NCBI RefSeq assembly: GCF_057098645.1
Contig: NZ_CM169472.1
Strand: one strand, 5' to 3'
DNA: 64,000 bases
The position numbers were made by a program. Positions 55,501 through 58,500 of this stretch are shown here, piece after piece. Each line of letters opens with the position of its first letter. Positions within the stretch are counted from its first letter, which is position 1.

Positions 55501-58500
55501 TTCCTGTGTGGTACGCCGTCTGCGTTTCTCCGGCCCTAAGACATCAATCATCTGTTCTCCAATGACTAGTCTAAAAACTAGTATTAAGACTATCACTTAT
55601 TTAAGTGATACTGGTTGTCTGGAGATTCAGGGGGCCAGTCTAGCGCGTCACGAAATGTCATGCACATGTCACGACGAGTCACGACAGATAAAGATACAGA
55701 TAAAGATACAGATCAAGAAGATCAAAACACTATGGTCCATGGCGTAAAAAACGCCACGAACCAGGCAGGGGATGTTCAGACCGTCAATCCTGGTCAGCCA
55801 GCAGGCACGACACCGGAAGCCGATTCAGCGTATGCGCTGAAAGCCGATTCGGGCGCTGTGCAGCAGGTGATGACCGCAAGGCCGAAGCAATCACACCAAC
55901 TGCAGCAGCCTGAAGCCGATTCCGCCATTCAGCGGGAAGCCGATCGGGTAGTCCCGGAAAACACCGGGCTGTCTGTGGGACGAGTGGATTATCCGGATGT
56001 GTTCGAACAGGTCTGGCGGGAGTACCCGTTGCGTGCCGGAGCAAACCCGAAGAAATCCGCATTCAGTGCCTGGAAGGCCAGATTGCGCGAGGGGGTGCCA
56101 CCAGAGACCATGCTGGATGGTGTGAGGCGTTACGCGAGATACCTGGCGGCGACCGGGAAAGCGGGAACGGAATTTGTTCAGCGAGCGACGACGTTTTTTG
56201 GGCCGGACCGGAATTTTGAAAACCCCTGGTTGCTCCCGGTAAGCGGCACGAACAACCAGCGTTGTGTGAATCATATTTCTGAACCGGATACCGAAATTCC
56301 GCCGGGATTCAGGGGGTGATGTGGCATGAAAAACATTGCGGCAGCCGGGGTTCTTGAACGTATTCGCAGACTTGCACCACCGGCGTCGGTTCCACCGTAC
56401 CGGACGGTGGAGGAGTGGCGGGAATGGCAACTTGCTGAAGGACGAAAACGCAGCGAGGAGATTAACCGCCAGAATCACCAGTTGCGGGTGGAAAAAATCC
56501 TGAATCGTTCGGGCATCCAGCCTCTGCACAGCAAATGCTCGTTTGCGAATTATCAGGTGCAGAACGACGGGCAAAAATACGCGCTGAGCCAGGCCAAATC
56601 CATAGCTGACGAACTGATGACCGGGTGCACGAATTTTGTGTTCAGCGGTAAAACCGGCACCGGGAAAAATCACCTTGCAGCGGCGATGGGTAACCGGCTG
56701 ATGGCGAAGGGGCGCAGCGTGATTATCGTCACCGTGTCTGATGTCATGAGCGTGTTGCATGACAGCTACGACAACGGCAAATCCGGGGAAAAATTTTTAC
56801 AGGAGCTTTGCAGTGTTGATTTGCTGGTCCTGGATGAAATAGGCGTTCAGCGGGAGACGAAAAACGAGCAGGTGGTATTACACCAGATAATTGATCGCCG
56901 GACAGCATCACTGTGCAGTGTCGGGATGTTAACAAACCTGAATCATGCCGCAATGAGTACGCTTCTTGGTGAGAGGATTATGGACCGCATGACCATGAAC
57001 GGTGGTCGATGGGTGACGTTTAACTGGGATAGCTGGCGTCCAAATGTCAGCAATATGAGGGTTGTGAAGTAATTTTGTCCGGAGGAAATTTTAATGGAAA
57101 CCGTATCTGACGCACTGAAAGCACTGAAAAAAGCCTCTTCACATGTGGTGGCAGCTCGCCTTGGAATCAGTCGTGAAGAGGCTGTCAACGAGCTGTGGGA
57201 ACTCAAAAGAAATGGCGTCGTTGATAAAACTGGTCACACCTGGTTTCTGGCTGGCGAAGGTGAATCCCGGGTAACCGAAGAGCGGCCAGTAAAATCTGAA
57301 GCACAGGATATGCTGACCGGGGAGGTCGAACAAAAAGTTACCGCAGACATGATGATTGAGTTTATCGGTCAGGATGGGGCTAAAACGTGTGAGGAACTGG
57401 CGGGTAAGTTCGGTGTCAGTACTCGCAAGGTTGCTTCCACGCTGGCGGTGGTAACCGCAACGGGGCGGCTGGCACGCGTTAATCAGAACGGTAAATTTCG
57501 TTACTGCATGCCGGGCGATAATTTACCAGCAGAGCCGAAAGCCGCGCTGGTAACGGAAAGTGATGGTAAGGCCTTTCCTCAGCCAGCAGGTGCTGCGTTA
57601 CCAGTCCGGGAAGCCGCAACACAGGAAGAAATTAAAACAGAAACTGTGGCGGACATTGTGCAGCCGTTGCCATCGTTTACCGAAACGCAAGCAGATGAGC
57701 TGATTTTTCCGTCCCTTCGCAGGGCAAACCTGGCGCTGCGCAGGGCGAAAAGTGATGTTCAGAAGTGGGAGCGAGTCTGCGCCGCGCTGCGGGAGCTGAA
57801 CAAGCACCGGGATATTGTTCGACAGATTACTGATTCTTCCCGCCGTGTTGTATCGGAAAAGTGATTGCCGGAGGCGCTTATGGCAAAAGTATTTACACAG
57901 GAAGAGCGGGAAAAAATTAAAGGGCAGGTTGTTGAGCTAGTACGCCGGAGTGGGCGCGAGACGTTACGGCAACTGGAAGCCAAGACAGGTGCGACAAGAT
58001 ATCTGATGAGCGTTCTTGCCAGAGAGCTGGTTGCCAGTGGCGATGTATACAACTCTGGTTACGGGTTATTCCCATCTGAACAGGCTCGTAAGGACTGGCA
58101 AAACGCCCGCAAAAAACTATCGAGGGCAAAACTGAAGAAACCGGTTGTGGTTGATCCTGACCTTATCTGGTCATTACCAGACGGAGAAATACGCCGCTAT
58201 GACAGGCAATTGAACATAATTTGTAGTGAGTGCCGTAACAGTGAAGTGATGCAGCGAGTTTTGATATTTTACACAGGAGTAATGATGGAATAGTGAAAAT
58301 AACATGAAACCTTTGGATTCTGGTGTTTCAGTGGATGGGAAAAGAGCAGATACATAGAAAATGAATAGCAATAATTCACAGTCTGGATGTTGTTTGTATG
58401 CTTATAAAATGATCCTAGTATGCATTGCCGGAGTTGAATCAGCTCCAATGAAGAAACTGAGAGGAGTATTTAGAAGATAGCTAAATGGATGTAATTATTA

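What the first reader, a model, noticed from the sequence alone, without database searches (positions are those of the whole stretch)
57094..58293. Two contiguous uncharacterised genes after the DnaC-like loader
A 256-aa protein with two winged-helix-like segments and a 142-aa protein follow the replication module without a gap. They occupy the nin-region position and have no assignable function from sequence.
Basis: inference. Interest (0 to 1): 0.25.

Follow-up and report, generated by a model that had tools for sequence, protein, structure and literature searches.

The report
Rac-type ydaW and Ren-like prophage genes
These are two very common, already catalogued lambdoid-prophage genes: a YdaW/DUF1627 protein with two winged-helix domains, and a long-form relative of phage lambda's Ren anti-exclusion protein (DUF977/"LygF"); the finding is ordinary, although neither protein's biochemical job has been shown.

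Summary
One correction: the second gene starts at ATG 57880 (137 aa, GGAGG ribosome-binding site), not TTG 57865 (142 aa).

- **Identity of the DNA.** The 1.2 kb is 100% identical to annotated genes in many EHEC genomes ("DUF1627 domain-containing protein", "DUF977 family protein").
- **ORF1 (57094-57864).** It belongs to Pfam DUF1627 and the family of E. coli K-12 Rac YdaW. The AlphaFold2 model shows two winged-helix domains, acidic disordered linkers and a long basic C-terminal helix.
- **ORF2 (57880-58293).** It belongs to Pfam DUF977 and phrog_142 ("Ren-like exclusion protein"). Profile-profile comparison with the lambda Ren family gives 97% probability (E 1e-10). It is Ren with about 40 extra residues.
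- **Position.** Intact Rac phages carry ydaV-ydaW-lygF in this order. The pair therefore occupies the "ren slot" after the helicase loader, not the NinA-NinI genes.
- **Independence.** Distant homologues of each gene occur without the other, so they are separate modules.
- **Selection and spread.** dN/dS is 0.2-0.5. The genes are limited to Enterobacterales prophages and are found in 51% and 75% of complete E. coli genomes.

The most likely role is as accessory early-operon proteins that protect the phage from abortive-infection exclusion. This is inferred from lambda Ren and from K-12 YdaW blocking a retron toxin. Already known; low interest.

The parts
56326..57072 (+). Upstream context: DnaC-like helicase-loader ATPase (YdaV homologue), the last core replication gene
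   Evidence: NCBIfam PRK12377 509.5 bits (cut-off 389); phrog_50 3.3e-83; Pfam IstB_IS21
57081..57085 (+). GGAGG ribosome-binding site, 8 nt before the ORF1 ATG
   Evidence: Read directly from the sequence
57094..57864 (+). ORF1, 256 aa: YdaW-family / DUF1627 protein
   Evidence: PF07789 9.7e-99, 328 bits; phrog_630 4.5e-133; 55% identity to K-12 YdaW over 154 aa; RefSeq WP_000451007.1
57094..57258 (+). ORF1 winged-helix domain 1 (aa 1-55)
   Evidence: AF2 pLDDT 88-93, H-H-H-E-E topology; mean top-residue frequency 0.58 across homologues under 85% identical
57259..57330 (+). ORF1 acidic disordered linker 1 (aa 56-79)
   Evidence: pLDDT about 40; net charge -4; conservation 0.18
57331..57513 (+). 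ORF1 winged-helix domain 2 (aa 80-140), basic, with the conserved helix T-x-R-K-V-A-S-T-L-A; absent from natural short forms
   Evidence: pLDDT 82-89; pI 9.5; A103 invariant, G95 and G124 over 90%; weak match to the ORF2 winged helix, hhalign 81%, E 1.3e-5; short forms P0293, P0342, P0274, P0278
57514..57651 (+). ORF1 acidic disordered linker 2 (aa 141-186)
   Evidence: pLDDT 38-52; net charge -8 for aa 141-204
57652..57861 (+). ORF1 C-terminal module (aa 187-256): conserved I-P-x-F-T...D-x-L-x-x-P-x-L motif, then a long basic helix
   Evidence: Helix 208-255 at pLDDT 89-95; pI 11.4; conserved in alignment A1; found joined to other N-termini in decay fusions P0267 and P0241
57870..57874 (+). 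GGAGG ribosome-binding site, 5 nt before the ORF2 ATG
   Evidence: Read directly from the sequence
57880..58293 (+). ORF2, 137 aa: DUF977 / LygF / long-form Ren-like protein
   Evidence: PF06163 4.3e-27; phrog_142 5.1e-45; hhalign against the lambda Ren family 97%, E 1.2e-10; RefSeq WP_001151233.1
57898..58074 (+). ORF2 winged-helix domain (aa 7-65)
58075..58194 (+). ORF2 insertion relative to lambda Ren: basic helix (aa 66-90) plus a low-confidence loop (aa 91-105)
   Evidence: Gap in the hhalign alignment to Ren and in the MAFFT alignment; net charge +7; pLDDT 49-58 in the loop
58195..58275 (+). ORF2 C-terminal signature (aa 106-132): Y-D-R-x-x-N-x-x-C-x-E-C-R-x-S-x-x-M-x-R-V-L-x-F-Y, the segment shared with lambda Ren
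   Evidence: Most conserved region, 0.80; BLASTP to Ren 73-92 at 50% identity, E 2e-5; invariant N112, C118, R119

Best explanation
The region holds the last two genes of a Rac-type early-right (pR) operon, ydaW and lygF. They are transcribed with the replication genes, and each is translated from its own GGAGG site.

ORF2 is a long-form member of the lambda Ren family: a basic winged-helix domain, an inserted basic helix, and the conserved Ren C-terminal helix motif. By analogy with Ren, it most likely protects the replicating phage from Rex-type abortive-infection exclusion imposed by co-resident prophages. It would do this either by binding the sensor proteins or by masking the replication complex that triggers them.

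ORF1 is a full-length YdaW protein. Two winged-helix domains are tethered by acidic disordered linkers to a conserved short motif and a long basic helix. It most likely acts as a second, independent accessory or anti-defence adaptor that binds a conserved host or defence target rather than a phage-specific operator.

Shown: the identity, family membership, architecture, gene position, purifying selection and modular independence of the two genes. Inferred: the anti-exclusion mechanism itself.
For: - **Identity.** DUF1627 328 bits and DUF977 95 bits. phrog_630 and phrog_142 'Ren-like exclusion protein'. Lambda Ren is in the same PHROG at 1.6e-41. hhalign of the ORF2 family against the Ren family gives 97%, E 1.2e-10 over Ren residues 9-93. 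HMMs built from each family hit the other's member (26 and 18 bits). ORF1 is 55% identical to K-12 YdaW.
- **Position.** Intact Rac phages have ydaV-ydaW-lygF. ORF2 homologues lie directly after the last replication gene in mEp460, HannyBb, L090 and L093, as lambda ren lies after P. ORF1 homologues follow either DnaC-type or lambda-P-type loaders.
- **Architecture.** AF2 models. ORF2 and Ren are both basic, pI 9.6 and 9.9. The second winged-helix domain of ORF1 and the C-terminal motif of ORF2 stay conserved in homologues only 25-40% identical, which argues for a conserved target.
- **Function leads.** Rex proteins interact with lambda Ren in a two-hybrid assay (Thomason et al., bioRxiv 10.1101/2021.04.19.439022). 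K-12 ydaW was recovered and re-validated as a blocker of the retron-Sen2 toxin RcaT (bioRxiv 10.1101/2020.06.22.160242). The L093 homologue is followed by a Lar-like restriction-alleviation gene.
- **Selection.** dN/dS is 0.21-0.50.
Against: - No experiment addresses either protein of this window.
- Ren's own mechanism is unknown, and the same paper calls it 'likely involved in DNA replication'.
- The retron-blocking result came from multicopy expression of the truncated K-12 protein.
- ORF2 differs from Ren by a roughly 40-aa insertion, and pairwise BLAST detects only the C-terminal 20 residues.
- Lambda Ren does not reach the Pfam DUF977 model.
- Fold searches return only generic winged-helix proteins, many of them DNA-binding regulators.
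Confidence: 0.55

Rival explanations
1. Both proteins are ordinary sequence-specific winged-helix transcription regulators (MarR/ArsR-like) that tune phage or host gene expression.
Against: No HTH family reaches its Pfam gathering score. Neither model shows a MarR-type dimerisation scaffold. The presumed recognition helices are conserved across very divergent phages with different immunity regions, which is unusual for operator-specific regulators. The tandem winged-helix hits (ScpB, ESCRT-II, DDRGK1/UFL1) are protein-binding modules.
Confidence: 0.2
2. They are accessory replication factors that act on the initiator, loader or DnaB complex, or on the origin, as the last members of the replication module.
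For: Both sit invariably at the 3' end of replication modules of several types: DnaC-like, lambda-P-like, or a single O-like gene. Thomason et al. describe ren as 'likely involved in DNA replication' and group Ren with O as replication proteins. Some homologues follow RecE-type exonucleases.
Against: Each gene is dispensable in many related phages, because distant homologues occur one without the other. The same ORF2 family serves unrelated initiator and loader types, which argues against a specific partner in the replisome. From background knowledge, lambda ren is not required for replication; this was not tested here.
Confidence: 0.2
3. The ORFs are decaying or non-functional remnants of a cryptic prophage, or are mis-called ORFs.
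For: This prophage is damaged: IS2 splits its replisome-organizer gene. The K-12 ydaW copy is truncated. Deletion fusions such as P0241 and P0267 exist.
Against: Both reading frames are intact and 100% identical across many genomes. Both have strong ribosome-binding sites. dN/dS is below 1. Functional phages carry them: Rac-SA53, PhiR5_2, mEp460.
Confidence: 0.03

Closest known systems
Bacteriophage lambda Ren (NP_040633, 96 aa)
   Same: Same PHROG (phrog_142). Profile-profile homology over nearly all of Ren (97%, E 1.2e-10). Shared winged helix plus the C-terminal E-C-R-x-S-x-x-M-x-R-V-L-x-x-Y motif. Basic pI. Gene located at the end of the replication module in the pR operon.
   Different: ORF2 is 137 aa, with a roughly 40-residue insertion (basic helix plus loop) between the winged helix and the C-terminal motif. 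Pairwise BLAST finds only the last 20 residues. Lambda Ren does not score on Pfam DUF977. Here ORF1 lies between the loader and ORF2. Anti-Rex activity is untested.
E. coli K-12 Rac prophage YdaW (b1361, 186 aa)
   Same: ORF1 is 55% identical over residues 1-154 and lies in the same position directly after ydaV. Both belong to DUF1627 and phrog_630.
   Different: The K-12 copy is truncated after the second winged-helix domain by the Rac internal deletion. It lacks the conserved motif and C-terminal helix, and lygF is missing downstream. ORF1 is the full-length form, as in Rac-SA53.
LygF of Rac-SA53, mEp460 and Shigella Stx phages (DUF977)
   Same: 69-95% identical proteins in 24 sequenced phages. 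Annotated LygF, 'Ren-like exclusion protein' or DUF977.
   Different: None of substance; this is the same protein family. No paper explaining the name LygF was found.
DUF977 winged-helix region fused to Fic domains (Kinch et al. 2009, PMC2686095)
   Same: Same Pfam family, recognised there as a winged-helix fold.
   Different: Those are domains inside Fic proteins. ORF2 is a stand-alone phage protein with the Ren C-terminal motif.
Tandem winged-helix adaptors (ScpB, SelB C-terminus, DDRGK1/UFL1, ESCRT-II)
   Same: They are the best structural matches to ORF1's two consecutive winged helices (Foldseek E 1e-4 to 1e-2).
   Different: TM-scores are about 0.2 and sequence identity 10-20%. The resemblance is in fold class only, with no evidence of homology or shared function.

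Membership tests
Pfam DUF1627 (PF07789) | HMM score above the gathering threshold (28.1 bits) over the full model | tested here: met
   328 bits, E 9.7e-99, model positions 1-155 of 155
Rac YdaW family | Sequence homology to K-12 YdaW | tested here: met
   55% identity over 154 aa, E 5e-55; both in phrog_630
Rac YdaW family | Gene immediately downstream of the ydaV-type loader in the early-right operon | tested here: met
   Window 56326-57072 then 57094-57864; same order in K-12 and Rac-SA53
Pfam DUF977 (PF06163) | HMM score above the gathering threshold (22.1 bits) | tested here: met
   95.3 bits, E 4.3e-27, model positions 1-131 of 134
Lambda Ren family (phrog_142) | Detectable homology to lambda Ren over most of its length | tested here: met
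   phrog_142 at 5.1e-45 for ORF2 and 1.6e-41 for Ren; hhalign 97%, E 1.2e-10, Ren residues 9-93; reciprocal HMM hits
Lambda Ren family (phrog_142) | Compact ~96-aa architecture with the winged helix directly followed by the C-terminal motif | tested here: not met
   ORF2 is 137 aa with a ~40-aa insertion; it is a long-form variant
Lambda Ren family (phrog_142) | Gene at the 3' end of the replication module in the pR operon | tested here: met
   in this window ORF1 intervenes
Lambda Ren family (phrog_142) | Confers resistance to RexAB exclusion | not testable with these tools
   Needs plating of ren- or complemented phage on rex+ lysogens
Lambda nin-region proteins (NinA-NinI) | Homology to any Nin family | tested here: not met
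   No Nin family appears among the Pfam, PHROG or NCBIfam hits
MarR/ArsR-type winged-helix transcription regulators | Family HMM above the gathering score | tested here: not met
   Best hits are HTH_Crp_2 20.3 against 27, HTH_11 16 against 25, and NCBIfam HTH_metalloreg 16 against 55
MarR/ArsR-type winged-helix transcription regulators | Winged-helix fold | tested here: met
Known anti-phage defence system components (PADLOC) | Match to any defence-system protein model | tested here: not met
   ORF1 gives only E of about 1e-3 HTH-region matches to Csa3/CARF; ORF2 and Ren give nothing

The most novel reading that the evidence does not exclude
ydaW (DUF1627) and lygF (DUF977, long-form Ren) are two independent anti-abortive-infection factors parked at the end of lambdoid replication modules. 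Each winged-helix protein would neutralise a different sensor or toxin that fires on phage replication or recombination intermediates: Rex-type systems for the Ren-like protein, and retron RcaT-type toxins for YdaW. This would make the 'ren slot' a general counter-defence locus present in most E. coli genomes.
Probability: 0.2. Interest if true: 0.5.

Novelty: already known. Interest (0 to 1): 0.12.

Why it matters
It matters little as a discovery. Both genes are catalogued (Pfam, PHROGs, RefSeq), identical copies are annotated in many EHEC genomes, and the Ren link is already encoded in PHROG-based annotations. The value here is in tidying up:

- The ORF2 start is corrected.
- The pair is placed as the intact Rac ydaW-lygF arrangement.
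- The two genes are shown to be separable modules.

Ren's mechanism has been an open question since about 1980. The very wide spread of its long-form relatives (75% of complete E. coli genomes), together with a retron-toxin-blocking hit for YdaW, makes this slot a reasonable place to look for counter-defence functions. That remains a hypothesis.

Tried and rejected
**Searches that gave nothing useful**
- PDB sequence searches found nothing below E 0.07.
- BFVD viral structures for ORF2 gave nothing below E 0.014.
- PADLOC gave no defence-system match.
- NCBIfam gave no family for either ORF.
- Rfam found no RNA family inside 57094-58644.
- The promoter/terminator scan of 56-60 kb found numbers no higher than shuffled sequence and no terminator after ORF2.
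- The IMG/VR scan with ORF1 returned only loci at least 96% identical. These were useful for close synteny but not for diversity.
- Literature searches for LygF, DUF1627 and DUF977 found no functional study.

**Ideas considered and rejected**
- *ORF1 and ORF2 are an obligate pair.* Rejected because distant homologues occur separately.
- *Natural fusion protein P0122.* It results from a single stop-codon change in one contig.
- *Beta-clamp-binding motif in ORF1 (QADELIF).* Rejected because the Q is not conserved in the family.
- *Zinc-binding Cys pair in ORF2 (C115/C118).* Rejected because lambda Ren has F at the first position and there are only two Cys.
- *The ORF1 C-terminal helix is homologous to the Ren C-terminal motif.* Not supported: hhalign aligns only the winged-helix regions.

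Full report
**Observation.**
ORF listing and direct reading of the sequence confirm two consecutive + strand genes after a DnaC-like ATPase (56326-57072; NCBIfam PRK12377 509 bits, phrog_50).

ORF1 is 57094-57864 (256 aa, ATG), with GGAGG at 57081-57085.

Four lines of evidence place the real start at ATG 57880 (137 aa):
- the RefSeq annotation of the identical DNA in E. coli O26:H11 11368;
- the N-termini of all homologues, which begin MAK/MAR;
- the profile alignments, which start at residue 6 of the 142-aa reading;
- a GGAGG at 57870-57874.

The spacers are 21 and 15 nt, so the genes are tightly packed but not abutting.

The 1.2 kb is 100% identical to annotated 'DUF1627 domain-containing protein' and 'DUF977 family protein' genes in many EHEC genomes. 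dN/dS against phage PhiR5_2 is 0.50 for ORF1 and 0.21 for ORF2. These are real genes under purifying selection.

**What ORF1 is.**
It matches Pfam DUF1627 (328 bits against a cut-off of 28.1) and phrog_630. It is 55% identical over 154 residues to E. coli K-12 Rac YdaW, which lies in the same place after ydaV.

The K-12 copy is truncated. Intact Rac phages such as Rac-SA53 carry ydaV-ydaW-lygF.

An AlphaFold2 model built from 38 diverse homologues (mean pLDDT 73.6) gives this layout:
- winged-helix domain 1, residues 1-55;
- a disordered acidic linker, residues 56-79;
- winged-helix domain 2, residues 80-140 (basic);
- a second disordered acidic linker;
- a conserved I-P-x-F-T...D-x-L-x-x-P-x-L motif followed by a long basic helix, residues 208-255 (pLDDT 89-95).

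Conservation follows this pattern: domains 0.45-0.58, linkers 0.18-0.25.

Natural short forms lack the second winged helix (P0293, P0342, P0274, P0278). Foldseek finds only tandem winged-helix proteins (ScpB, SelB, DDRGK1/UFL1, ESCRT-II) and MarR-type domains, at TM-scores of about 0.2.

**What ORF2 is.**
It matches Pfam DUF977 (95 bits against 22.1) and phrog_142 'Ren-like exclusion protein' (5e-45). Lambda Ren itself hits phrog_142 at 1.6e-41.

Pairwise BLAST sees only the C-terminal 20 residues (50% identity, E 2e-5), and lambda Ren does not reach the Pfam DUF977 model. I therefore built family alignments for the ORF2 family (A4) and the Ren family (A3) and compared the profiles. The result was 97% probability, E 1.2e-10, covering Ren residues 9-93. 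HMMs made from each family also hit the other's member.

ORF2 is Ren with a roughly 40-residue insertion (a basic helix plus a loop) between the winged helix and the C-terminal signature N-x-x-C-x-E-C-R-x-S-x-x-M-x-R-V-L-x-F-Y. That signature is the most conserved segment (0.80).

**Context and synteny.**
The surrounding region is a Rac/Qin-like early-right operon. In order it holds:
- a repressor with a RelBE-type toxin-antitoxin pair beside it;
- a YdaT-like gene (PF06254);
- a replisome-organizer gene split by IS2;
- the DnaC-like loader;
- ORF1 and ORF2;
- an AT-rich island with an alpha/beta hydrolase gene on the opposite strand;
- sok/hokD, DUF968, RusA and Q.

Among 87 loci with an ORF1 homologue, most at least 96% identical to ORF1, 78 have DUF977 immediately downstream. 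Four of the nine without it are loci where the contig ends.

Divergent homologues separate the two genes:
- ORF1 relatives at 28-34% identity follow lambda-P-type loaders (L086, L087) or a RecE-type exonuclease (L085), with no DUF977 nearby.
- ORF2 relatives follow a DnaC-like gene directly (L090), an O-like gene (L093, mEp460, HannyBb), or a short Exo VIII gene (PhiR46_1).

The genes are therefore independent modules that share the slot lambda uses for ren, which lies directly after P and before ninB.

**Distribution.**
An exhaustive search of 1.84 billion representative proteins found only 243 hits for both families together. The named members are Escherichia, Shigella, Salmonella, Citrobacter and Pantoea.

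In 5,426 complete E. coli genomes, ORF1-like DNA occurs in 2,766 and ORF2-like DNA in 4,093.

**Mechanism.**
Nothing here is experimentally established for these exact proteins. The leads are:
- Lambda Ren is the classical determinant of resistance to Rex exclusion (background knowledge: Toothman and Herskowitz 1980).
- Rex proteins interact with O and Ren in a bacterial two-hybrid assay (bioRxiv 10.1101/2021.04.19.439022).
- K-12 ydaW was recovered and re-validated as a multicopy blocker of the retron-Sen2 toxin RcaT (bioRxiv 10.1101/2020.06.22.160242).
- The ORF1 winged-helix 2 helix and the ORF2 C-terminal motif stay conserved between phages with unrelated immunity and replication modules, which suggests conserved host or defence targets rather than phage-specific operators.

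I therefore favour accessory counter-exclusion roles for both proteins. Identity is about 0.95 certain; the mechanism is about 0.35-0.45. The rivals are plain transcription regulators (0.2), replication accessory factors (0.2) and non-functional remnants (0.03).

**Verdict.**
Already known; interest 0.12.

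Noticed in passing
window 54320-55633 (IS2 inverted repeats); flanking ORFs 53907-54398 and 55615-56319: An IS2 element (InsC/InsD ORFs on the - strand; 33-nt terminal inverted repeats) splits the replisome-organizer / O-like initiator gene just upstream of the DnaC-like loader. 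This prophage is probably replication-defective. No complete E. coli genome in the collection has the same arrangement in one piece.
   Followed up: partly
window 55684-55719: Three tandem 12-nt repeats (ACAGATAAAGAT x2, then ACAGATCAAGAA) lie inside the initiator gene right after IS2 and encode a TDKD repeat. They could be a linker repeat or origin iterons, as in lambda O.
   Followed up: no
window 55724 onward, compared with upstream: There is a mosaic junction. From 55724 to 64000 the window is 99.9% identical to the O26:H11 11368 prophage, apart from that strain's IS1203. The immunity region and the 5' part of the initiator gene are only 80-94% similar or unrelated.
   Followed up: partly
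window 52048-52529 (-), next to the repressor gene 52547-53047 (-): A RelE/ParE-RelB type II toxin-antitoxin pair sits beside the prophage repressor, the position where lambda carries rexAB.
   Followed up: no
window 58294-59760, gene 58645-59418 (-): An AT-rich island (32-37% GC) directly after ORF2 carries an intact alpha/beta hydrolase gene on the opposite strand. The same gene is interrupted by IS1203 in O26:H11 11368.
   Followed up: partly
window 59854-60178 and 50550-50601: Rfam finds a sok antitoxin RNA overlapping the hokD toxin gene (107 bits) and a DicF sRNA (77 bits). Both are typical Qin/Rac-type prophage features.
   Followed up: partly
L085 3026-5011 / 5001-5768; L094 3902-4501 / 4501-4920: In a Salmonella prophage, a distant DUF1627 gene overlaps the end of a RecE-type exonuclease gene. 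In phage PhiR46_1, a DUF977/LygF gene abuts a short Exo VIII gene. RecE is a reported retron trigger and ydaW a reported blocker, so the adjacency may be meaningful.
   Followed up: no
proteins P0122, P0241, P0267: P0122 is a read-through ORF1-ORF2 fusion caused by a single stop-codon change. P0241 and P0267 are deletion fusions joining replisome-organizer or DUF1376 N-termini to the DUF1627 C-terminus. All are rare and look like prophage decay products.
   Followed up: partly
phage record PP818812.1 (H37): A record named Actinobacillus phage vB_Apl-pPE4 encodes a protein 78% identical to ORF1, which is odd for a family otherwise confined to Enterobacterales.
   Followed up: no
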